This document shows, one piece after another, positions 790-64,000 of a stretch of DNA of 64,000 nucleotides; position 1 is the stretch's first letter, and each line of letters opens with the position of its first letter. The DNA is from Gnetum montanum (lineage: Eukaryota > Plantae > Gnetophyta), in the NCBI GenBank assembly GCA_015680685.1, contig MNCI01000406.1:582045-646044 (forward strand), in the 5' to 3' direction. The position numbers were made by a program, and so were the translations under genes. The notes under the pieces are model-generated. The model was not told where the DNA came from. It searched no databases and worked only from the letters and a program-made list of their open reading frames with translations.

Positions 790-1750
790 TGATGAGATGC
801 GATTCGCATGAGTCACGATATCGCATCGTCCCTTGCAATGTCGCATACGCAATATTGTGGTCCATCACCAAATCTATAAATAAGAGGTGGCACTCCCCTT
901 ATTTTCCATCCTAGGCTTAAAGTAGGGAAACTCTGGCAGATTGATCACTCCAAAGATAGAATATTTTCCATGTGCTCGCAGTAGGAGTCCTCGAGTGAAC
1001 AAATCTTTATTCGAGCAGCTTTGTACCTAAACGCAAGTTGTGTACGACAATAAAGATGAGCTTTGTGGATAAACCTTGCAGTGCATGGAATAGGATTTAT
1101 TATTTGTTATTTATTACATGTTATTTCCTGCTTTTTATTTATTACTTGCAGTAGCGCGGCATGAGTACAACTTGATTACGAGCATTGACGAATGTGTATG
1201 GCTAATCAAGGAATGGGCTGCTCATCGCGATTAGGTTCTCTCACCCTTAACTCCTAAAATGCAGAATGAGTACAACTTGATTATGAGCATCTAAGGATGT
1301 GTACAGCTAGTCAAGGAATCGGCTGCTCATTACGTTTAGGCTAGTTAAGTGCCTCAGTACGACCACTTCGAGAACGTGCATTACGTGTGGTGATCCTAGT
1401 AACGATTAGCGTTTGGTAGCCACAATTGCATAGTTTAGGGTGTGTACGGTAAGTGGGAACGGATGCTGACGCTAGTTAATTTATACTTAGTTCATTAGTT
1501 AGAGTTAGTTAGCTTTCTCAACCCTTCACCTCAATAGCATAGGAGAAAAACACATAAAAGATATAAAAATCATATACCTCATACTTACTTAACCATACAC
1601 CGTGACAACTACAAGTCTGGGAAGACAACGAATGATTAACCCCAAGTGTTCCATGGGGTGTGTAGGCATTTAGTCTGCAAAGTTCAACCGGATCGTGCGT
1701 GCTACGCTCGTTTCATATGGTTGAGTGTAGGGGTACCTCGCCACTCATCA
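790..1750 (+). repeat. 3' LTR of element A (961 bp)
   Basis: Inverted termini TGATGAG/CTCATCA; TATA-like tctataaata at ~873. The terminal ..tatggttgagtgtaggggtacctcgccactcatca is nearly identical to 47218-47252 and to the reverse complement of 10429-10465. Confidence 0.92.
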
Positions 1751-2158
1751 AACTGGAAATAAATTACTTAACTTAAATGCATTAAAGTAAAGTACATAAA
1801 AATAAAATGCAATAAAGAAAATATTAAGTTATTCTCAGTGCTACAAGAATTGTCAAAAGAGTTCATTTTATTCTCGTCACACTACTGTGCTCAGGTACAT
1901 CAATTCTTGAACAAAGAACCATACACACTTAGACTCCTTCTGCAAGCACTTAGAAAATATTCTAACTTTGAGAAAAAGAAATGGCAAGCGCTTTGCTACT
2001 TTGACTAAGAAAGACCAAAATTGACTATGAAAACTGGAGCCCAAGTGTGGTATTTATAGCCTTGGGGTATACACCCCAACATCAAACATCTAACGTTAGA
2101 TCCAAGCCCCAATGTTACATATGCAATGTTGTGGCTAACATCAAATGGTCCTTCATCA
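1751..2158 (-). repeat. 3' LTR of element B, truncated by insertion of A
   Basis: Aligns to 10833-11233 with about 50 substitutions in ~400 bp (hand count), mostly transitions. Confidence 0.93.
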
Positions 2159-10409: not shown

Positions 10410-10427
10410 TTCCTGGCAATGGTGCCA
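10410..10427 (-). promoter_or_regulatory. Primer-binding site, tRNA-Asp type (TGGCACCATTGCCAGGAA)
   Basis: Lies immediately after the 5' LTR; reads as a G>A-decayed form of TGGCGCCGTTGCCGGGGA, the PBS typical of Athila. Confidence 0.85.
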
Positions 10428-10428
10428 A

Positions 10429-11233
10429 TGATGAGTGGTAAGGTACCCCTACACCCAACCATATGAATCACTAAGGTTGAATTCTGTGGACCTATAGTTA
10501 TCTAATACACTAGCTCTTCTAAGAAGTGAAATGGGCATGGAGAATGTTCGTTGTCTTCTCAATTACACTTGTGTGTTCAAATGTATGGTTTAAGTGTAAT
10601 TGAGATATATGATTTTTCTTACTTTATATTTTATGGATTTGGTCACATACAATAGGAATGAAGAGTAGAGTAACTTAAAATCTAACTTGTTTATTGCCTA
10701 TCTATCCTAACACAAGTAACCACCCCACTTTCCTAAACACATATAGCATTGTTGGGTTGCCAAACATTAAGCGTTGCTGGGTTACCAAGTACTATATGAA
10801 TTCTTGAAGTGGTCATGCTCATGTTCATTAACAACTAGAAATAAATTGCGTAACTCAAATGCATTAAAGTAAAGTACATGAAAATAAAATGTAATAAAGA
10901 AAATATTAAATATTCTCAATGCTGCAAGGATTTTCAAAAGAGTTTATTTTATTCCCATCACACTACTATGTTGAGGTACATCAATGCTCGAACAAAGTAC
11001 CTACACACTTAGACTCCTTCTACAAGCACTCAGAAAATATTCTAACTCTGAGGAAAAGAAATGGCAAGAGCTTTGCTACTTTAACTAAGAAAGACCAAAC
11101 TATGAAAACTAGAGCCCAGGCATGGTATTTATAGCCTTGGGGTATACACCCTGACGTTGGACATCTGACATTAGATCTAGGACTCAATGTCACGTATGCA
11201 ACATCGTGGCCAACATCAAATGGTGGTTCATCA
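10429..11233 (-). repeat. 5' LTR of element B (805 bp)
   Basis: Bounded by TGATGA..CTCATCA on the minus strand, adjacent to the PBS, matches 1751-2158. Confidence 0.93.
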
Positions 11234-11240
11234 ATAGTGN

Positions 11241-11679
11241 TTAAAGAACTCTTTCTTGACCTAGGCATAATAAGTAAAAATATATTTTTCACTAAAAGAA
11301 GCCAAAAAATTTGTTTATGGAATCTCATGTTCCATTCATTCTTTGGCCTACTCCTTAGACCACCACCAATGTCAAGTAATATTTATCATTAGATAAGCAA
11401 CTAACGTGGTCAACTATGCTAGAGTACAACCCATTAGATCAAATGGCTTCTTTAGCTCCTCTAGCCACTTTATCGCAATAGTTGGATCTTTTGTGTTAGA
11501 AAATGTAGGAGAATCCAACTTATAGAATTACTCAACTAACTCTTTGCTAATTAGCTTCCTAGACTATTTTCTTTATCACCAGCAATACTAGCACCACTAT
11601 TGATGAACCACCATTTGATGTTGGCCACGATGTTGCATACGTGACATTGAGTCCTAGATCTAATGTCAGATGTCCAACG
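11241..11679. other. Probably mis-oriented small contig between two single Ns
   Basis: 11595-11679 is an exact reverse complement of 11155-11239, and the segment is bounded by N at 11240 and 11680. Confidence 0.8.
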
Positions 11680-36805: not shown

Positions 36806-39474
36806 CTATGATCATAAACATAACCCATGATTAGCTTTCCAATTCATAACCTCTAGTTATTTGCATACCTTTCTTTATTAGATCATGTTATATTTTTGTT
36901 TTTAAGTGTTAAATGTTAAACGTTTAAGTAATGGTTTGTGATATTCGCTAAGTATATTATTTAAATATTATTTTATTTTTTAGTATCAAAGTTTGTTCGT
37001 TAGTTGTAACCCTTTATGGTAATTAATTTAATATTATTTTGATGGATTAACCATGGGAAGTTAGAAAATTTTCAAAAAAAAATTCACCAAAAACCAAAGG
37101 TTTGTGTCCCTTATGATGTAACGTGTACCTTCAATAGCATGAGGCTCAAAAAAACAACAAAATCAAATAAGAGGTGTGTGAGTTATGAGGCTCAAAAGAT
37201 CCTTAGGCTTTGAAAAACTACAAAAACTCATCTTTCTTTGTTGAATAATGGTGAAAATAAACTAAGTGTTGTGCATTTATATATACTTTTTATACTACAT
37301 CGACGAACCTATGTTGACTCATCTGACTATGTCGACATAGCTATACTTAGCTATTTTTCACATTAAGAAATGGAGGAATCCTGAATAAGTTTTGAAATAA
37401 AATAAGAATCCAATGGAAGCTAGAAGAATGGAAAATAATGACAACAACATAGTAGAGGGTAGGTTTAGCTTAGAAGAAGCAATTTGAGTGGAGTTGGATA
37501 AAGTTATGATGTCAAATAGAGCAAAAATGGATGTTGCAATGCTATTGGGATAATTGATTAAGCAAGTGATCTCTAGTAGGAAATTGAACTTAAATTAGAT
37601 AAAAGGAATGCAAACAAGTTCTCCCCAAAGCAAGCATAGGCTTCTCATGCCCTTGCATACCTTCATTGTAAGGACTTTATGAACCCTAAGGATGATGAAT
37701 GATTGATTTGAGTTAAATCCCATACCAATGGAAGAAATTATCCATGGGTTATGTGGTCTAGAAAAAAATTTGAATAATTTCCTATGGCATTAGATAGTGA
37801 GGTGGTAAACCATGAGATGAATGAATGATAGAGAAAAGATGTGGACAAGATTATCTACATCCTAGTCACACAAGGTTCTTGGTGAAAATTATGATTAAGA
37901 TGATCTGATACTAGTCCATTCCAAGTTGAGACAAAGGCCATTCTACTCTCAATGACCTTGCATCAACATATGCCTACTTTGCATAAATCAAAAATCTAGG
38001 ACAACCCTAAAGAATAATCATCACTCTAAGAGAAGAAGGGAGTAGAGAGCGCCTTAATTAGAGGGATGCCTTCAGGCATGGATAGCATGTCTTTGCAGCC
38101 CCATATAGCCCAGTATTCATTCTAAGGGATGTGCTTTGGATTTTTTTGTTATTTTTTTCATGGAAACTACACCATGCAAATACATGCTTCCATTTATGGT
38201 CAACGATAGGAGTGATGATATACCAATGGAGTATCATACAATCTTAAGAATGATGTTGAGGGAAATCGTATCAAATCCCCTTGAGGTCACACCCTATTCC
38301 ATTCCCACTTGGTCCTTTCTAAGTTCATTGGGTATCAAGATCATTGATTATTTTGTTAAGTTCTAATGTGAAAGAACCTTGTGTTTCCATGAAACTAATT
38401 TTCCATGGAATAAATGGAATGCGTGATTGTCATGAACTCACTACCTAATACCACTAGAAAGTTAATAGATTGTTAGTAGATCACATAATCCAAATACAAA
38501 AATTGGTCTTTTGTTTAATCAATCATAATAGTGATAGCATCCTTTAATACTTTTCCATATTTGCAATAGTAATGATCAAATTTAAGATTTCCAATAAACT
38601 AATGAAATTTATGAAATTGATAAAAGTAAAAAGAAAAAGAGAAAATACATAGAATAAACAAGAAAATATGTAAGAAAATGGTAAACATATAAAGAACAGT
38701 GTTAAACAAAAAGGGTGAAAAATAGGTTATCTCCATTAAGGTGTTAGGTTTGGATAGTCAGCTATCCCATGACTATGTTAAGAGGAGGAGATCCAAAAAA
38801 TAGAATGAGCCTATTCTAGTGCCGAGTCAGTGTTGGTTGTTTTTTATTTCAAGAATGGTTTAACTTGTTGTACATTGACCAATAAATGTTTATCAAGGCT
38901 TGATGGGTGGTTTCTGGTCATGGCTTTGGAAGGAAAAGTTGCATGTATGGTATAAGGTCCTTCCCATAATGTTTGAAATTTAGTGTGTTGTGGCACATGC
39001 ATGGGATTCCAACAAAGAACCTTATCACAAGGTTAAAATTTGACTCTTCTTATCCATGCATCATGACATTGTTTGGAATGTGCCTTGTGCACTTCATTCA
39101 TCATCAGGGCTACTTGTCAATTCTCATCTAGAACATTAAGTATTATTAGTCATTATTTCTATGCTAGATCAATGTTTATGTCAAGCTCACAAGCCATTGT
39201 GAGTATACAATGTTTGAATTGGATTGGAAGTTTGGGTAACTTTCTATATACCTACTCATAGGGAGAGTAGCTAATAGGAAGTTTCCAAGTTAAAAGATAT
39301 GCCCAAAGAGCATCATGAAATTTAGTACTCCACTCCCTCTTATACCTACTAATTGTTTATGATAGCATCCTAGTGATCTCCCTATTAGTAACTTTAGCTT
39401 GACCATTGGCTAGTGATAGGGAGTTGTGAGTTTATGCTGCACCCCAAAGTATTACATTAATTTCCAAAAAGTAG
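34335..39474 (-). mobile_element. Athila-like element C, internal fragment (integrase C-half, 3' non-coding region, accessory ORF; no LTRs)
   Basis: 38760-39474 is homologous to B integrase (4080-4790); 37600-38450 to B's 3' region; 34335-36805 to D's accessory ORF. Confidence 0.88.
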
Positions 39475-39486
39475 ATCACTCATCAT

Positions 39487-39504
39487 TGGCGCCGTTGTTG
39501 GGGA
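39487..39504 (+). promoter_or_regulatory. Primer-binding site, tRNA-Asp type (TGGCGCCGTTGTTGGGGA)
   Basis: Directly follows the LTR end CTCATCA. Confidence 0.9.
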
Positions 39505-40785: not shown

Positions 40786-43505
40786 GGAAGCACGTTACAC
40801 CCAGAGTTCATACAAAGATACTGTGTTCGATCATAGTGGCAACAATCCCAGTCATGGGGGAAGCCATCCCTAAACTGGGGACACCCTTCGTATCATCCAA
40901 ATCTAAATGGTTATCTAGTTCAACATCCTGTTTCCCCGACTGGGTCAACATACTCTATCTCGCTGCATTATTATTCTCCTCAGTACTATCATCCCATGTC
41001 CTCAACACAACCACCGCCTTGTGTACCTTACACTTCTCCTAAATTTCAACATTCTCATCCTTTCCCTCCTTCTACATCACCATTAACTATTCCTGAAGTA
41101 TCTGCATCACAGCAGTAACCCACAAATGTTACTTATGTTGCTATTACCAATAGCAATGAGATATCTCCTCAACATCAAAGGCATTCCTTCTTTAGACATG
41201 ACCGTAGGAAGGGACAACACAGTTCCAAGGCCATTACATTCTCCAACTCAACACAAGTCCAACACTGTGGTGCATCCTTCTCCTCGAACCCAACACCTCG
41301 TGTCACTTCATCGGGGCCACTAGTTAACACTCCAACAACCATACAACGCAATGAATACAGCCACAGAGGACGACATCCTGATCCGTGCATACCATCTTAT
41401 GATCTCAAGTATCATAGTGGGTCAACTCTTTACCTGGGAACCACATCTTATAAATTGCCCTACTATGTTTACTATAATCAGGTGTGTGGACCCCAATGGG
41501 GTAAGTATGACCAAGTTTCGATATTTCCAACATGCAAGGATCCTCATCTTTCATTTATTAATCCTTACCATGCTCAACTGTGTAGTTATGGGGGATATCC
41601 CCCATTCTAATAACAAGCAGGATTAATAAATATTTTTATTTTCTTTAATTTTATAATTTTTTGTTTGCCAGTTTTTCAATTTTTTTTTTGTTACCTTTTT
41701 GTCTTTTTGTTTTTTTATCTTTTTATAAGTAATTTCATCTACTAATAAAACACTCATGTGGCTCATTGGTTGAGGTGTGTTCTATGATATTGAGTCTCAA
41801 GTAATTAATTATTTGGATAGTGAGCCCATTACACCCACTCATCCATTCTACAAATAAGAGGTTCTATTCAAGGGTACAGTGATATTCTTGACATTCTTAA
41901 AACTTAAAATTAATTTTGTATTCATTTTATCTAGAATGAAGAAGGATGGACCAAGAGGGAATGATTAGGATGTGACATCAAGGGGACTTGTGGATTCTCT
42001 TTGGTGATGTTTGTGAGAGTTATCACGCAATGTGGTTGTACTAAGATCCTTGTAGATCTAACGCAAAATGGGAGTAAGAGTAATCAAAAGGCACTCAAAA
42101 ATCCAATGCTATTCTAGGGGGTCCCACTGGAAAGATATGCATCCATGCCTGAAGGTTGACAGCTTCTTTGGATTTAGTAATTGAAAAAAAAAGAAAAAAA
42201 AACAAAGAAAGTGCCACAAAGTAAAAATCGCTCCTCCCTTGAACAAAATGCCAAGTGATCATACACCTTGTTGTTATGGTACTCTCATAGTCGCTCATCA
42301 TGGGATGAAATAATGTGGTGTCACTGATCAGAGGAATGGACTTGGTCCTAATCTTGGAATGATGGGTTAATGACACATTAATCATACTTTACAAGTAGTA
42401 TTCATTGTGCCCTGGGTCAATTACCTCATGTCCCAATTTTTACAATCTCTTCTATAGTTCGTCTCATCTCGCTGTTCATGTAATTGTAGCTCGTGTCTCG
42501 TATAGCGTAGAATTCTTACCTCATTCTGATGATACTTACATGTGTGTATTTTTTGGAACTAGTGTAGATTACATTTAACCCTTCTAGTGCCTACAGACAT
42601 TTTAAGGTGTGGTTACGCAAGGGCATTAGAGGTTGGAACCTGCTTTGGGGAGGACCCACTTGCGTAAATTTTTGTAATTTGCACTCATAACACATCTTCC
42701 ACACACCATCTATTACCCTCAGCATATTTTCAATGATATTCTTTCCCTTATTACTATCCCTTCAATTAAAACGTTCCTATGAACCATCACATAGCCTTTT
42801 TCTCCCCTTTACCATCTGAGGTCCTTATTAATAAATTCCACACCATCATAATTTTCGTGCCTTTAGAACTAGTTGAATTACCCTGGAACCCTTTAACACT
42901 CATCCAGATGTCCTTAGTTTACATTGTTTAATTTCAAAAAAATATAAGAAAATTTGGTACATTCTATAAAGTTCCCTAACATCGTCGATGCGATATCGCA
43001 TCCCAAAAATATATATACACGCGACCCCTCCCCCCCCCCCCCCCCCCCNCATTTGCGACTGTTAATGTGGGGGAAGTTTTTCAAATTTCTCTCTATGACT
43101 CATGATTGTGTGCCCCTTGCTTTCATATTCATAGCTCGCTCGCTGGTCCTCTGTTTGAACCTACTTTAACCCAAAGTGTTTAGCTTAGTCGTGAGGGAGG
43201 GGCACATGCTAAATAGCACATAAATTTTTTGAAATTCATCATCGCTCGAAGGACATTATTAAGGGTAATTAATTATAAAATTAAGGATAAATGCATCAAA
43301 AACAATTTCATCTCCTTAGTTATATCAAAAAACTAGATTTGGAAACCACCTAAGCAAAGAGGATTCAATATTATAATCTTTCGGGGACATTTTCTCCTAA
43401 TAAGTAATGTCACACAGAGATAAAGAAAATTCATTAAGGCAAGAAGTAAGGTATAACCTAACTTTGGTAATAACCTTACTAACAATTGGCCCCGTGTGAT
43501 TGCAG

Positions 43506-46210
43506 ATGGCCCTGGAAGACCCTGCCAAGGAAGGTCCTAATCAAGGTGGGATCAAGAGACCTAGGAGAGGTGAAGGACAAGTTCCTGATAAAAAACATGC
43601 AGAGTAGGGGGAACAATCATTTAGTATCCACCAAGAAGACCCTGCCACTGTACAATCAAGGTAGGCAGAACGAGGAGCTGCTGCAGCGTCTGAACAGGGA
43701 CGACATCTCACATTGCCCTAGGATTGTGTTCAGGCCATCAATGAAAGGTCCATATTTACTGCAATGCCTCAAAGGGTCCCCATTATGGCCTACCCTCTCT
43801 AAAAGTGGTGTCTGGTACTTAGGGGAAATGTACCAATTTTGACACAACAAAGAACAAGAAACCATGGCTAACATTTGTGGTGTGACTATTGATTTCTCTG
43901 TTCAAGCCATTTCAAAAGTATTAAACCTTTCAAATATAGGGCCAACGGTTGCTTAGTTGTCTACCCAATCAAACCCTGATGCGTGATGAGTTTGGTTAGA
44001 CAGTGCATACAACAAAGAAGATAAGACCTTTGGGGAGTTGACGATGGAAGAGAGGATTTATTTCAAAATAGGGACTTATCACATCTTCCCCACAAAAAGT
44101 TTAAAAAGAATTTCAACATATGTGGCAAGAGGATGTGTAGTGTTGATGGGAAAGGTTAATGCTAACCTACCTCATCTATATTTTATGGAGATCCTGAGGT
44201 GGTTTGAAGAATGGAAGACATGGAAGTTTATGTTAACCTTCCCTTGCCTTATCAGGAAGTTGTGCAAATGTGCTGGTATCAGAGGATACACCAACGGTGT
44301 CCTCCAAAAAGCCCAAAATGCTTCGAATGTTGAACTGCTAAAGCCATCAGCTGTAAGGAAAATCACTGGTGAGATGTTGGGTCCAAAACAAGAAAAAGAA
44401 CAGCAGGCAAGGCCAACTGCAACTCAACTTGCAGGACCTATCCAACTTCCAAGCATGGGACCCAGCCAACAAAAAAGAAGTAGGGCCTAGCACAGGCCAA
44501 CAAGATTAACCACCGCCATCGCTGTAAGATTACAGACCATCGATGAGCTATCTCACGGCCATCACTAAGATGATGAATTGGGAAAGTCGTGATGATGCAA
44601 ATCTCTTTCGTGTCATTGACGATGTTGTACAAGCTACAATTTCTATAGATCATGCATGGGGTGAAGTGTCCATTCAGATAGGAGGAGGAGAGAGTGCTTG
44701 GTCACAACAGATTTCAGGGAACGCTATGTCCTTTCAGGTGCAGTTAGAAACTGGTGAAGGAGCCATGGTGGTGGTCATGCAGCACCAGGATGTAGTAGGA
44801 GCCACAGAAGTGGTCACAAACCACATTAAAGAATCATTCAATGTGCTTGTTATGCCATCGATAGATCTTACAGGAACATGAGGATGTACTTGAATGATTG
44901 CTACAAATAGGACAGGTAATTATGTCCTTGTTTGACATTCCATAAGATGTTATAGCAATACAATCAGACCTCATTTCCACCAAAGGAAAGCTGGTCTTGA
45001 TGGAGATGAGGGTCAAGCATGCTAAAGCAGAAGTGCAAAGATTGCAAGAAAGGCTTGTGACCCTGCAAGCAGCACAGCGAGATCCTTCTCAATTCATTCC
45101 CACAAACTAACTGGACACTTTCAAACTGAGAAACTTACTAAATTGTTAACAAAGAATAAAAGGGTGGTTGAAGAAAAAGATAAGGTTGTTTGGGATGCCT
45201 CTGCGGCACAAGTGCAAACTTACGCGCATACCAAGGCACTCAAAGCCTTACAAGAGGAGAACAAACAACTTGTTGTTGACAACCTTTGATTGACCTTTGT
45301 GGAGAAACAAAAGAATTTTCTTGAAGAACATTTTCAACAGTTGTGAGAACAACTAATTAGGATCAACCAGGACATGAAACGTTTAGCTAGAAAAAATTGA
45401 ACCCTCTTAATGGAGGAGGTATGCACCATCCGTTAGAAGATGGAAATTGAAATAAGCGTGTTGCAGAATGAGGCTAAATGGCATGAGAAACTAAAAGAGC
45501 ATTTCCTAGATGAGGTGGGGATGTATAAAAAAATCATCGAGAAGGAGATGCATATGGCCAAGGCCCACATCAATGCTCTTAGTGCTCAACACACTGACTG
45601 GTGGGCCATATTGGACACATACGCATTTGCCCACCAGGCGGACGTTAAGAACTGGGACCTAAAGATCCAAGACCTTACAAAGTACATGGACTTGGCAAAC
45701 TTGCAGTATGCCAACCTTGCCATGTTAACAACAGGGTGCCCGAGAATAGATCTTGAGTAATAGGTAGCCACCACCTACATCAAATATGAAACAGAATTTG
45801 CAGAACACAAGAAAACATTACAAAAACTAGAGGTTGCAAATTCTAAACTCAAGGTGGTTAAAGAAAGCTACTAGGGGTAGAAAGGTGTCACAACAAACTT
45901 GGCTCAATGGCTCACAGATTTTCAAGAATACAGAGACAAAGCCAGAGCTTACGAGGAGGAATGACAGGTGTTTGCAGCTTGGTATGTCAAATAAAATAAA
46001 ATGTTTCCATAACTACCATGCCCATGGAAGGTGCTGACTCTATCAAACATTGGAACATTAGCATGGACAGCATAGGATCCCTAAACTGAAGAGGAGAAAC
46101 TCCAGGCCATACTTTGATGCCATCAAATCCCAAGACCTGAAGCGCAAGACAAGGGAAAGGCACCCATGGAGGTGCCACTGCCACCAGGAACTACAAGAGT
46201 TCCACCCAAT
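43506..46210 (+). pseudogene. Accessory ('env-like'/Athila ORF-type) protein with long coiled coil, element D
   Basis: ATG right after tgattgcAG; ICGVTIDFS..ISKVL; NLPHL..LTFPCLIRKLCK; heptad-rich 44900-45900. Homologous to C. Confidence 0.82.
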
Positions 46211-46390: not shown

Positions 46391-47252
46391 TGATGAGTCA
46401 TGAATTGTTGGCCGTGATATTGCACCCATGATATCACATACGCGATATCACAGCATAGACATGATATCGCATACACAATATCGCAGCCTATCTCCTCATC
46501 TATAAATAAGAGGCAGGAAAATTTGGTAAAAGGGAGTAGTTTTTAATATTACGGGAGAGTAGTTTTAAATATTAAGGTAGGTACTTTTTGTCAGTTTTTC
46601 CTCTCAACCCTTTCTCCCAGTGCATGCTTGTAGTGTGATGATTGTAATTGTACGACATCCTTATCTGAGTGTGACGTACTTGGACACACACATGACTGGC
46701 AATAAAGATCGAGATTACCTCATTATTGTAGCATCCACTTAGCTTAATTATTTAATTATTGTTATTATTTATTACTTCCTTAGTTAATATCTCTCTACCC
46801 TTATCTCCTAGTAATGTGGAATGAGTACGACTTAATCACGAGCATTTAAGTGTGACTACTTGGTAACCCAGTAGCTTACCTAGGCCATGCACTTGGTAAT
46901 CCCAATGGTAGTCATGCACGAGGTCCAAGATGTGTACAAATGATTAAGGAATGAACGCTCATCGCACTTAGGCTAGTTTAGATTCTCTCTCACACTCTCT
47001 CTCATAGTTTAGTTGATATTATTTCCCATCATCCCCAGGAGTAGCATTAGTGTAGGAACACATCATACAGCTCACTCTGGACTAAACCATACGTGACAAA
47101 GCTAATACTAGTCTAGGTGGGAAGACAGTGAACTACGATCTTCGAGTAACCGTCTGGATACCACAACTAGTCCGTCTGCAGAGTTCGACCAAATCGTGCG
47201 TGAAACACTCATATTCGTATGGTTGAGTGTAGGGGTACCTTGCCACTCATTA
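46391..47252 (+). repeat. 3' LTR of element D (862 bp)
   Basis: TGATGAG ... CCACTCATTA; TATA at 46501; homologous to the LTR of A. Confidence 0.92.
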
Positions 47253-61206: not shown

Positions 61207-64000
61207 ATGGCACCAAAGATCAGAGGAAAGAATGCCAAATTGGCGAAGATTGATGAAGTGCAGGAGAGCTTGCAACGGGCTTCGCAGGCCAAAGTCGAGA
61301 CTTAGGAGGTTACTCCACTTAATCGGTAAGTCACCTTTCATCCTCTTGCACGATTGTTATCTTTGTTGCAATGTCGTGGTCGTATGTATGTTGCGTCAGG
61401 TGTTAATATCTATTTATGCAGACTAAGCTATTATAGTTTGTTATATTACCCTTGTCCTCACTGTTAGAGATGGACTTTGTGTTGTCACAAGGGTTTGGGT
61501 AATGTTGAGTAATACTGTGTAGATGTAATGTATAACCAAAAAAGTCTAGGTATTGTACCTATGCATAGCGTAATCAGGGTTCTATTTTTTTTCTCGCCTG
61601 TAATAGTTGCATATTACAATGGAGTAATACGCAGTGTTGCTTTCATTGCCATTGTCAGGGACAAACCTTGAGCTGTTGCAAGGGTTTGGGCAATTTTGGC
61701 CATGCGTTTCCAGTATAATCTGTAATTTTCCTAGAATCAAGAGAACCCTAATATCACGTGATGAACCTTTATGTCTAAATGGTTTGTCTAATGGTAATGC
61801 ATTTTTTTTATTGTACAGTATTATGCTAAAGCTCGTCCTAATTGTTTTGGACATCGTGGACATTCTATGCTACCTACATAGTCCCGTGGCCCGTGTCCCT
61901 CCTCCTCATGCTCGTATAAAGGAGGAGGCGGTATGGTTCTGAAGGGATGCATGGGAGTTCTTACAGTTTTTGCTTCATAATTTTTGTGTAATCGTCTAGT
62001 CGCATCTACCAAGCGATGTAGCTACTGTTATTCTAGAGATGCTACTGGTTGGATCAACGCAAAACATCTTGACATTCTTGACAGACAGCGTCTTTGAAAC
62101 TGTGCGAGTTCAAGAACGCGAACAGAGCGCCAAAGGTTTGAGGCGTTTGAACTGGATCTGGGAGATGCCCATGTTTAACTATTATCACACCTACAACACT
62201 CTGTTCGTGGTCCGTCATCTCACAACCTACTTCCAGAATCCACTTGGCATCGTGTATTATGCAGGCGGGTAAGTTTTTTGTTTCTTTTCACGGTCTTGTA
62301 ATATGCTAACTACTATTTAAATTTGTGTTGAGCGTAAAGAGTTTGCCTATCTTCTGTGATGTAGATTCTTCATCAATGATAGTGGTCTCCTAGGTGATAA
62401 CGATATATTGTCTTTGATCGAAAGGGCCATAAGGGAATTTACTTCCATCAGCAATGTACGAGTCGGTGTCATGGGACAACTGGCATTCAAAATCCCAGAA
62501 TATCCTACCCGCTATGTTGAATTCTTTACCAGGTGTAAAAGACTTGGATGGCTAGATAGGGAGTGGACTTTGGACCCTCCCCTCACCTTCGCAGACATGC
62601 AAGAGAAAATCTCTCCGTTTCCTTTGCCATTCAGGCCCGGTAAATTTTATTATGATGATTAATTGTACAATGTTATTAGCTGGAAATGATGTATAAAGTT
62701 GTCTTATTTTTGTTATATTGCCTTAACTATTTTTTTATGTTGACAGTCAGGGAGTCACAGGAAATTACGATTATGGCCTCCAATTGCGAGATAAACAGTC
62801 TTTTCTTCCATTATGGTGATATAAAGGACACACAACGCTGGCTTGGCCATAGAGCGGCCCCAGTTGTGTTAACCAATAACCTTCAGGAGGCTGGACTGAT
62901 GGACCTATTTTTGGCCATAACCCCCGATGTCACTGCGGGTGAAATGTTGACCCTAGTCAACTCCTTTAGCGAAGAAGCTGAGCATCTTTACATATGTGTG
63001 CGTAATGTGCGTGTGAATTTTAACATCGACACTCAACTATTCGCTGATCTCTTTAGTGTCCCCTCCGATGGCCTTCCTATAGAGGAAAAGTCGAAGAGGA
63101 GTTCCAAGCACCAGCCTGAGATAGAGGAGTGGCTAGGGATTAAGAAAGAGGTTAAGGGAATCCCTGCTGACAAGATTCATCTAGAGGTGGCCAATACTAT
63201 TTACCCCCTTTTTTGAGCCCAAGCCTTCCCCAAGACACTCTCCTAAAGGAGATTCCTCATCATAGAATAGGCTCGAATTATGTGAGAGGTCATGGAGGAG
63301 GAGACTCGGTTCAATTGGGCCTACTATTTTGCTGAAGGCTTGCGCATTGAAATGGTTAGGCTTCGCAAGAAGCTTGAGTCCCATTTCAATGTGCATTTTG
63401 CCTTCTTCATATCTTGCTTTTGGCATTTTTCCGAATTTCTAGTAGTCCAAAGGAATGGGGTCTAGGTGCAATAAGACCATAGCCAGATTTCCAAACCATG
63501 GATTTTCCATGTTTTCGACACTACTCAATTGCAAGACCCTCCTGAAGGAATTGGGGAGTCGTTGTCAATAACGACTAAAAATATGGTGGTGCCTCGAACG
63601 TAGGGTCAAGATAGCATGGGTGGGATGCTCCCCTCTTACACCGGCAATGTGTCGACGGGGAAGTGCCTGGCAACTAAAATAGTGGATTTGTTGGTGCAAT
63701 GGAAGAAGCCTTGTTTGACCGAGGAGCCTGTCGAGCCAGCAGGTGGTGTGAGGAAGAAGATGCAAGTCAAATTTCAGAGGAGTAATCCTCTAGCTAGTAA
63801 GTAGAGAAATGTGTTAATGTTTATGGTTATGTTGCATACAAATACTATTGCGTTGCATAATGTTTATTGAGCAAGAGTGAAATCCTATGTTAACTGATGT
63901 TGTTGTGTGACAGTGAAGGAGAAGGTTGTGGAGCAGTTGACCCCTAAAACGGGGGCTATAGTTTTGCGGCACGGAGAAGGGACCCTGGTCTTGGAAGAAG
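61207..64000 (+). pseudogene. Multi-exon gene of unknown function, probably transposon-borne, with in-frame stops; runs off the window
   Basis: Exons 61207-61325, 61659-61721, 61819-61930, 62039-62268, 62365-62639, 62747-63796, 63914->64000 with GT-AG borders and matching phases (the 62039 acceptor is a weak GAG). Stops are TGA/TAG/TAA in an otherwise continuous frame. Confidence 0.65.

What the first reader, a model, noticed from the sequence alone, without database searches (positions are those of the whole stretch)
1155..1470. Repeated covarying RNA stem-loop with a sarcin-ricin/loop-E-like AGUA/GAA motif in the LTR
Seen: LTR A has three units (1161-1225, 1266-1330, ~1352-1469) and LTR D one (46821-46962), all of the form AGTAC-RAC-helix-YGAG-helix..helix-GTGTAY-helix-GGAAY. 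The helices change sequence but keep pairing: cttgatta/taatcaag (A1), cttgatta/tagtcaag (A2, G-U), cttaatca/tgattaag (D, two compensatory pairs), ccactt/aagtgg (A3 and B). The apical stem is gcatt/aatgt versus gcatc/gatgt. The loop bases stay fixed. Unit A3 reads CTCAGTACGA...GGAAC, the two halves of the rRNA sarcin-ricin loop (CUCAGUACGAGAGGAAC) with a long helix in place of the tetraloop. Established: AGUA/GAA is the bulged-G/loop-E motif. Inference: this is a selected structured RNA element downstream of the LTR TATA box, hence in the transcript (TAR-like switch, packaging/dimerisation signal, translation-factor decoy or ribozyme). I do not recognise it as a described motif.
Basis: partly seen in the sequence, partly recalled or inferred. 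Interest (0 to 1): 0.82.

Follow-up and report, generated by a model that had tools for sequence, protein, structure and literature searches.

The report
Retrotransposon RNA loop on poly(A) hairpin
In the terminal repeats of a plant jumping-gene family, one small internal-loop motif recurs between stems that tolerate almost only pair-preserving base changes, sits on a predicted hairpin that hides the transcript's poly(A) signal and is multiplied just downstream, so it likely serves as a protein-binding site that helps the element make and package its full-length RNA.

Summary
The units are real. Helix P2 pairs at 30 of 30 positions in four units; 0 of 136 pattern matches in phage, metagenome and prokaryote DNA pair fully. 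Across family reads, 17 of 18 stem variants keep pairing or have a compensating partner, and G-U wobbles point to the sense RNA.

The sarcin-ricin/loop-E reading is not supported: AGUA pairs in an outer helix. Each unit instead carries two copies of one asymmetric loop, 5'-CGA / 5'-G(U/A)A(Y)CGGN.

Sense RNA falls just after that signal, so the units likely lie in U5.

Best reading (about 0.45): a protein-binding loop that helps keep the 5' poly(A) site shut and marks read-through genomic RNA for packaging or export. No ligand or function was tested, and covariation within single molecules was not shown.

Rfam gave no match. My literature searches found no description, but none targeted the poly(A) hairpin. 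The scan had no look-alike on other DNA.

The parts
790..1750 (+). LTR A, 3' LTR of an Athila-type element (TG...CA, purine tract just before it)
   Evidence: sequence; family reads running past 1750 continue into an Athila-type primer site (table 7)
874..882 (+). TATA box of LTR A; same box in D at 46500 and in B/C
1003..1057 (+). Poly(A) hairpin of LTR A: 9-bp basal helix 1003-1011/1049-1057 containing AATAAA (1049-1054), loop CGA (1012-1014) opposite GTACGAC (1042-1048), apical helix above
   Evidence: found by the covariance model built from A1/A2 (weak, E 2.9) and by the structure scan; 9 of 9 basal pairs; AAUAAA predicted paired at 5 of 6 bases
1161..1225 (+). Unit A1: P1 1161-1167/1219-1225, outer loop, P2 1171-1178/1203-1210, inner loop, P3 1182-1186/1191-1195, GACG cap
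1266..1330 (+). Unit A2: P1 1266-1272/1324-1330, P2 1276-1283/1308-1315, P3 1287-1291/1296-1300, four-base cap (NACG in most family reads)
   Evidence: family variation
1354..1469 (+). Unit A3: P1 1354-1359/1464-1469, 6-bp P2 1363-1368/1451-1456, long cap with a roughly two-fold symmetric internal loop flanked by GG/CC pairs
   Evidence: P2 not stable in a wider fold
46391..47250 (+). LTR D, 3' LTR of an element with gag remnants and a Transposase_32-like ORF
   Evidence: no sense-strand RT, RNase H or integrase match by tblastn
46657..46709 (+). Poly(A) hairpin of LTR D (AATAAA 46701-46706; loop TGA opposite GACTGGC)
   Evidence: 7 of 9 basal and 5 of 6 apical pairs; missed by the strict scan, and predicted open in the short local fold
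46821..46962 (+). Unit D: P1 46821-46826/46957-46962, P2 46831-46838/46941-46948, long cap with 14-bp helix 46850-46863/46902-46917 and symmetric loop
10429..11233 (-). LTR B, 5' LTR of a gag-pol Athila-type element, followed by primer site 10415-10428
10945..10999 (-). Poly(A) hairpin of LTR B (AATAAA 10953-10948; loop CGA opposite GATGGG)
   Evidence: structure scan; 8 of 9 basal and 6 of 6 apical pairs
10712..10822 (-). Degenerate long-cap unit of LTR B (P2 ccactt/aagtgg kept, loops decayed)
   Evidence: (cap z -2.46)
1751..2158 (-). LTR C, 3' partner of B (351 of 401 aligned bases identical), interrupted by element A just before the place of its U5 unit
1864..1918 (-). Poly(A) hairpin of LTR C (AATAAA 1872-1867; loop CAA opposite GACGAG)
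   Evidence: 7 of 9 basal and 5 of 6 apical pairs; missed by the strict scan

Best explanation
A small asymmetric internal loop (5'-CGA opposite 5'-G(U/A)A(Y)CGGN) recurs in the R-U5 part of these Athila-type LTRs, once on a predicted hairpin whose stem holds the AAUAAA signal and twice in each of one to three downstream stem-loop units, and it likely acts as a repeated protein-binding site that would help keep the 5'-LTR poly(A) signal closed and would mark the read-through genomic RNA for packaging or export. Shown: the motif, its positions, pair-preserving variation, sense transcription. Predicted: the folds and the occlusion of AAUAAA. Inferred: poly(A) cleavage near 1070-1090, hence U5 location and presence of the units only at the 5' end of full-length RNA; a protein ligand (Gag, the Transposase_32-type accessory protein, or a host factor); avidity from multiple loops; origin of the U5 units by duplication of the poly(A) hairpin; release of the 3' site by U3 sequences transcribed only there, by analogy with retroviruses.
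For: Selection on structure: 18 stem variant rows in family reads, of which 10 form five compensating pairs, 7 keep a Watson-Crick or G-U pair alone and 1 breaks a pair. Pair-breaking transitions: all 5 seen have a compensating row; 0 of the 8 with no possible compensating row were seen. Matched frequencies in RNA run X24, e.g. 1289 A>G 60/236 with 1298 T>C 58/223 and 1279 G>A 41/227 with 1312 C>T 51/296; Pearson 0.78 over 12 pairs, permutation p 0.003. One-sided changes give G-U on the + strand, which points to RNA of that strand. The cap reads NACG in most reads (1294 C in 181/230), in line with stable UNCG-type loops (recalled). Link to poly(A): the structure scan of 64 kb, both strands, gave 9 hits, 8 on LTR sense strands, 2 of them at AATAAA; LTR A has 6 hits against at most 1 in 200 shuffles. 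All 4 LTRs keep the register at AATAAA with different apical helices. The U5 P2 helix resembles the poly(A) helix in sequence. The sense/antisense read ratio falls across the signal from 24 to 3.5 (X22) and from 8.7 to 3.1 (X21), and stays 2-12 over the units. Tandem units with variable spacers occur in RNA and DNA runs (tables 5, 5c). The unit is retained in D, where no sense-strand pol was found. Retroviruses face the same 5' poly(A) problem (PMC3694450, passages).
Against: No ligand, probing or functional test. Linkage of partner changes in single molecules was not shown; the lay gives per-position counts only. Frequency matching is weaker in DNA contig runs: X5 Pearson 0.07, Spearman 0.66; X9 0.51, 0.85. 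Five of the 12 pairs had no row on either side and were entered as zeros, which inflates the correlation. Reads were selected at 80% likeness to A2, which biases towards apparent invariance. The loop pattern was defined after looking at these units, and it misses the outer loops of A1 and D, the inner loop of A3, the B unit and the poly(A) hairpins of C and D; D and B have 1 hit each, reached by 2 of 200 shuffles. Predicted occlusion is strong only in A; it is partial in B and C and depends on the window in D. In a wider fold P2 of A3 and D has probability 0.03 or less. The poly(A) site was not mapped: no pile-up of ends, no DNA control over 700-1800, and the sense excess falls again after 1513, so a second end further down is possible. 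A protein that closes the hairpin would act on both LTRs unless U3 overrides it. B and C belong to one element, so there are three lineages, not four.
Confidence: 0.45

Rival explanations
1. The loops form a packaging/dimerisation signal only. Gag binds the multiple loops, NACG caps or the self-similar long caps link two genomes, and the copy on the AATAAA hairpin is just one more binding site with no effect on 3'-end formation.
For: Likely U5 position, variable copy number, retention in element D. GACG cap in A1; GACG loops aid gammaretroviral packaging and dimer stability (PMC516450, PMC5874298, passages). The long caps contain two similar modules that could pair within or between molecules.
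Against: G at the first cap position in only 22/241 reads. The units lie inside the LTR, upstream of the primer site. AATAAA is held in the stem in 4 of 4 LTRs despite different apical helices.
Confidence: 0.2
2. The stalks serve nuclear export (CTE/MusD-MTE-like) or cap-independent or shunted translation across a leader of more than 800 nt.
For: Repeated internal loops on a rod; 16 ATGs in A 905-1750 and 12 in the matching part of D. A structured transport element is known in the murine retrotransposon MusD (PMC3362945, passages).
Against: Does not explain the copy on the AATAAA helix. The four-codon uORF seen in A1, A2 and D is absent in A3. No direct test.
Confidence: 0.15
3. No RNA-level function: the pairing is kept by template switching or gene conversion between the arms of quasi-palindromes, tandem duplication spreads the units, and methylation decay mimics covariation; or the structure acts in minus-strand strong-stop DNA.
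For: Folding z-scores near 0. Nearly all variants are transitions. Weak matching in X5.
Against: One-sided variants are G-U-compatible on the + strand, and no one-sided A-C type was listed. Non-complementary loop bases persist across lineages whose R regions do not align (A versus D score at shuffle level). 0 antisense hits in 4 of 4 LTRs.
Confidence: 0.08
4. A self-cleaving ribozyme of a new class, as in retrozymes, with the two loops docking.
For: Two conserved internal loops on one rod, as in hairpin ribozymes; LTR-borne hammerheads exist in plants (PMC11722881, passages).
Against: No Rfam ribozyme match. The invariant A22-A23-A24-C25 run of hairpin ribozymes (PMC8216279, passages) is absent from the loops. 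No pile-up of read ends in 2 of 2 lays (weak, fragmented libraries). Go-back joints also occur in DNA runs and carry spacer letters, so they are tandem units, not circles.
Confidence: 0.05
5. A sarcin-ricin/loop-E mimic that decoys translation factors or ribotoxins, perhaps as an alternative conformer.
Against: AGUA pairs in P1 in 4 of 4 folds; the SRL-type closure costs 11-12 kcal/mol and has pair probability 0.00; P1 shows compensating and wobble changes; no GAGA tetraloop; the poly(A) copies lack AGUA.
Confidence: 0.05

Closest known systems
Retroviral poly(A) hairpins and 5'-LTR poly(A) suppression (HIV-1 polyA hairpin; foamy virus; PMC3694450 and PMC5874298, passages only)
   Same: Poly(A) signal in R, present in both LTRs, placed on a stem-loop; need to read through at the 5' LTR.
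   Different: Here AAUAAA is predicted in the basal stem (the HIV-1 legend places it in the apical loop), is capped by a conserved asymmetric loop, and that loop is repeated in U5 stalks. No U1/splice-donor mechanism was tested here.
Gammaretroviral psi double hairpin SL-C/SL-D with GACG loops (PMC516450, PMC5874298, passages)
   Same: Tandem hairpins in the 5' leader; NACG caps, GACG in A1.
   Different: Inside the LTR, upstream of the primer site; mostly U at the first cap position; caps replaceable by long inserts; the conserved part is the internal loops.
RNA transport elements (MusD MTE, PMC3362945 passages; MPMV CTE and HIV RRE, recalled)
   Same: Structured cis element of an LTR retroelement with repeated internal loops suited to multivalent protein binding.
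   Different: Different sequence and location; no pseudoknot or kissing loop found; no export test.
U1A polyadenylation inhibition element (recalled, no call)
   Same: Two tandem asymmetric internal loops next to a poly(A) signal that bind a protein and control 3'-end formation.
   Different: The loop sequence does not match the U1A site as I recall it; retroelement context; the signal itself is predicted paired.
Sarcin-ricin loop / loop E (recalled)
   Same: AGUA and GAA occur on opposite strands.
   Different: AGUA is base-paired in P1; no closing C-G plus GAGA.
Plant retrozymes and hairpin ribozymes (PMC11722881, PMC8216279, passages)
   Same: Structured RNA within an LTR; rod with two loops.
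   Different: No catalytic core motifs; coding Athila-type elements.

Membership tests
Athila LTR retrotransposon | Primer site TGGCGCCGTTGCC next to the 5' LTR (ATHILAfinder preprint) | tested here: met
   10415-10428 (-) with 2 transitions and 39486-39499 (+) with 2 transitions; family reads past 1750
Athila LTR retrotransposon | Ty3/gypsy pol order with integrase last | tested here: met
   tblastn of Pol relatives covers 7635 to 4163 on the - strand between LTRs B and C, integrase-matching part last
Athila LTR retrotransposon | Extra ORF between pol and 3' LTR | tested here: inconclusive
   Transposase_32 at 43990-44487, E 1.7e-6 but below Pfam cut-off; atlas lead 0.92, family on 12% of members; Athila ORF-1 PF03078 not hit
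Athila LTR retrotransposon | Placement in the Athila clade on an RT tree; no additional RNase H | not tested
   no reference set available; the REXdb FASTA supplement was too large to read
Sarcin-ricin / loop E motif | AGUA strand not in Watson-Crick pairs, opposite GAA, closed by a C-G pair | tested here: not met
Sarcin-ricin / loop E motif | GAGA tetraloop on the closing pair | tested here: not met
   a long helix follows in 4 of 4 units
Hairpin ribozyme | Invariant A22-A23-A24-C25, with G8, A38 and G+1 (PMC8216279) | tested here: not met
   no AAAC run in either loop; no Rfam match
Retrozyme (hammerhead LTR) | Type III hammerhead in the LTR | tested here: not met
   no Rfam match
Retrozyme (hammerhead LTR) | Self-cleavage | not testable with these tools
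   no end pile-up, which is weak
Retroviral-type poly(A) hairpin | AAUAAA in R on a conserved stem-loop | tested here: met
   4 of 4 LTRs, 7-9 of 9 basal pairs; predicted only
Retroviral-type poly(A) hairpin | The signal is the one used for cleavage | tested here: inconclusive
   sense excess falls across it; no poly(A) tails mapped
Retroviral-type poly(A) hairpin | The hairpin represses 5'-LTR polyadenylation | not testable with these tools
   needs a reporter
Gammaretroviral GACG double hairpin | Two conserved GACG tetraloops downstream of the primer site | tested here: not met
   G at 1292 in 22/241 reads; units lie within the LTR
RNA export element (CTE/MTE/RRE type) | Confers export of unspliced RNA through a bound protein | not testable with these tools
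   no assay

The most novel reading that the evidence does not exclude
The loop is the binding site of an element-encoded protein (Gag or the Transposase_32-type accessory ORF). By binding the poly(A) hairpin and the multiplied U5 loops together, it switches the 5' LTR from making short R-only RNA to making packageable full-length RNA: a Rev/RRE- or U1A-like feedback circuit acting on polyadenylation, not described for plant retrotransposons in my searches, with unit copy number as a competitive trait among elements.
Probability: 0.2. Interest if true: 0.85.

Novelty: new variant of a known kind. Interest (0 to 1): 0.62.

Why it matters
Athila elements occur across plants (ATHILAfinder preprint abstract), and every LTR element with its poly(A) signal in R must read through that signal at the 5' LTR. 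I found no account of how Athila-type elements do this or recognise their genomic RNA, though no search of mine targeted polyadenylation. A short conserved loop placed both on the AAUAAA stem and in variable-number U5 arrays gives a concrete, mutable target for both questions, and a candidate job for the poorly understood accessory ORF. If the loop is a new protein-binding RNA motif, it would also be a new Rfam family from one of the most abundant repeat classes in such genomes.

Tried and rejected
No whole genome is held for this window, so no genome-wide alignment or R-scape-type test was possible. Pattern scans of viral contigs, metagenomes and prokaryote genomes (scan stopped at 29 of 64 parts, 120 loci) gave only chance matches without P2 pairing; these served as controls. 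The search for related loci with a Pol relative in viral contigs found none. blastn against phages found none. Two protein homologue searches with decayed ORFs of element D found none. Rfam: 0 at gathering score in 64 kb; 2 and 7 chance-level hits at E up to 10 in LTRs A and D. The run search listed no holder on record as RNA; RNA evidence comes from raw-read runs of the same species label. X23 gave only 13 reads. MAFFT misaligned the long-cap units, so pairs were counted by coordinate. The two-sequence covariance model found no further U5 units. The one non-LTR scan hit (62246, -) lies outside any recognisable LTR and is treated as chance. Considered and rejected: loop E/SRL, hairpin ribozyme, hammerhead, kink-turn (the extra bases lie on the wrong strand; consensus recalled), circular RNA from go-back joints, a conserved uORF. 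Literature: ten searches; the eight aimed at novelty showed no description in their listings. Unreadable supplements (REXdb FASTA and table) may hold Athila LTRs that bear on how widespread the motif is.

Full report
Setting. The window is a 37% GC repeat field of decayed LTR elements. Four related LTRs lie in it: A (790-1750, +), D (46391-47250, +), and B (about 11233-10429, -) with C (2158-1751, -). B and C are the two ends of one gag-pol element, 351 of 401 aligned bases identical. Primer sites after B and at 39486 match the Athila site given in the ATHILAfinder preprint (parts 1-2 of 4 read). No RT tree was made.

The observation. The four units are present as described, with a degenerate fifth in B. 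P2 pairs at 30 of 30 positions, whereas 0 of 16 and 0 of 120 chance matches of the loop patterns pair fully. Energy alone does not single them out: z from -0.78 to +1.25 in 8 folds. Folded alone, each unit has P1+P2 as its minimum-energy structure, 4 of 4. With 60-70 nt of flank, A1 and A2 keep P2 (0.87-1.0) but A3 and D lose it (0.03 or less). Rfam has nothing at gathering score in the window and only chance hits in LTRs A and D.

Family variation. Reads and contigs of four runs were laid on unit A2 at 80% likeness; all 40 variant rows at 4% or more were shown. Eighteen fall in stems: 10 form five compensating pairs, 7 keep a pair alone, 1 breaks one. All five pair-breaking transitions that were seen have a compensating row; none of the eight with no possible compensation was seen. 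In RNA run X24 partner frequencies match: 60/236 with 58/223, 26/239 with 23/221, 41/227 with 51/296, 35/227 with 33/296, 45/241 with 29/227 (Pearson 0.78 over 12 pairs, permutation p 0.003; five pairs are zero-zero). In DNA contigs the match is weaker (X5 Pearson 0.07, Spearman 0.66; X9 0.51, 0.85), perhaps partly because 3' halves of long-cap units add depth from 1297 on. Co-occurrence in single molecules was not observable. One-sided changes make G-U pairs on the + strand, which argues for sense RNA rather than DNA or the minus strand. Eleven of 21 loop positions have no row; the other ten vary almost only by transitions at CG/CGG sites, as methylation decay would give (decay is my inference). 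Selection of reads by likeness inflates apparent invariance. Go-back joints with spacer letters occur in DNA as well as RNA, so tandem arrays of units are common in the family.

The loop is not loop E. AGUA pairs with UGCU in P1; the pair below changes from G-C to C-G in A3, and the partner of the uridine is A instead of G in 86% of X9 depth. Forcing the SRL-type closure costs 11-12 kcal/mol without a loop-E bonus. With P1 formed, both internal loops have one form: CGA on the 5' strand opposite G(U/A)A(Y)CGGN on the 3' strand, in the same orientation. The CG of the two strands may pair, leaving a 2-nt bulge and a 1x3 or 1x4 loop; which form holds is unknown.

The loop also caps the poly(A) hairpin. 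A covariance model built from A1 and A2 picked up 996-1070 weakly (E 2.9). There the same loop sits on a 9-bp helix, 1003-1011 with 1049-1057, that contains AATAAA. A structure scan of both strands of the window gave 9 hits: 8 on LTR sense strands (one a cross-pairing of A1 with A2), including the AATAAA hairpins of A and B, and 1 elsewhere. LTR A has 6 hits against at most 1 in 200 shuffles; D and B have 1 each, reached by 2 of 200; C has 0; there are no antisense hits. The pattern was written after seeing these units. In register, A, D, B and C have 9, 7, 8 and 7 of 9 basal pairs and 6, 5, 6 and 5 of 6 apical pairs with different apical sequences, although the R regions of A and D score at shuffle level against each other. 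Predicted occlusion is strong in A, partial in B and C, and window-dependent in D. The U5 helix P2 resembles the AATAAA helix in sequence, which suggests that the units arose by duplication of this hairpin (inference).

Transcription. In two stranded RNA runs first mates lie mostly on the - strand, which in the usual protocol means + strand RNA. The sense/antisense ratio is 8-11 (X21) and 10-47 (X22) over 848-1069, drops to 3.1 and 3.5 at 1070-1106, is 2-12 over the units and 0.4-2 beyond 1550. This fits cleavage just after AATAAA and places the units in U5, but the reads come from many copies, no DNA control was laid on that stretch, no tails were mapped and no pile-up of ends was listed.

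Mechanism. Both LTRs transcribe R and U5, so the 5' copy of AAUAAA must be skipped. Retroviruses solve this by structure, U1 snRNP and U3 activators (PMC3694450, passages). I propose that a protein binds the loop, stabilises the closed hairpin and, through the multiplied U5 loops that survive only on read-through RNA, commits that RNA to export or packaging; U3 sequences would reopen the 3' site. Only the anatomy, the variation and the transcription are shown; ligand and effect are inferred (0.45). Rivals: packaging/dimerisation only (0.2), export or translation (0.15), no RNA function (0.08), ribozyme (0.05), SRL decoy (0.05). That the structure is selected at RNA level I put near 0.9.

Comparison. 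It works like a retroviral poly(A) hairpin joined to a multivalent leader element. It is not a sarcin-ricin loop, a hairpin ribozyme (PMC8216279, passages), a retrozyme hammerhead (PMC11722881, passages) or a GACG double hairpin (PMC516450, PMC5874298, passages). MusD MTE is a functional analogue (PMC3362945, passages). PMC2829016, PMC6317226, PMC5086612 and bioRxiv 2024.04.02.587720 were read as passages and the passages describe no such motif; the supplement list of PMC6317226 was seen but its FASTA could not be read. U1A/PIE, CTE, RRE, SRL, UNCG and kink-turn features are recalled, not from calls.

Novelty. Earlier scan notes hold no look-alike, only structured U5 ends of unrelated animal LTRs. 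Verdict: real, selected, a new variant of a known kind; interest 0.62.

Noticed in passing
window 1161-1178, 1266-1280, 46821-46835: Units A1, A2 and D start with the same four-codon uORF (Met-Ser-Thr-Thr-stop); D keeps a stop through the compensatory change in P2. A3 has no ATG, so this may be incidental.
   Followed up: partly
window 1387-1424, 46860-46904, 10753-10788 (-): The long caps of A3, D and B share two GG-YRA(Y)-CC modules that pair crosswise into a roughly symmetric internal loop: a third conserved loop type. Each module also looks like a weak 5' splice site.
   Followed up: partly
window 995-1002; 46649-46656; 11000-11007 (-); 1919-1926 (-): A sequence resembling the motif's 3' strand lies directly before the 5' arm of the poly(A) hairpin in 4 of 4 LTRs. 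This hints at a further upstream loop that could compete with the hairpin; the scan did not recover it.
   Followed up: partly
window 848-1070: Strong sense RNA excess in two stranded libraries (up to 47-fold), ending near AATAAA; these may be abundant short R-only transcripts.
   Followed up: partly
window 1551-1735: Sense excess disappears or reverses (0.4-0.6 in X22), after an A-rich stretch at 1545-1572 that could be a second 3'-end signal.
   Followed up: no
window 800-850, 46415-46480, 42985-43005: Repeated GCGATATCGC-type palindromes in U3 of A and D and in a further fragment.
   Followed up: no
window 1750/1751 and 39474-39485: Nested insertions land inside LTRs: element A interrupts LTR C, and an inverted integrase-bearing fragment abuts the last 11 bases of D's 5' LTR.
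   Followed up: no
window 11155-11239 and 11595-11679: A 100% inverted repeat next to single Ns at 11240 and 11680, probably an assembly artefact at the start of LTR B.
   Followed up: no
window 1673-1750, 47174-47250: The LTR 3' end is the most conserved block between A and D (86% over 77 nt); not examined for structure.
   Followed up: no
window 61900-63200: GC-richer stretch that looks like host-gene exons on the + strand; no Pfam hit in the six pieces scanned from 61585 on.
   Followed up: no
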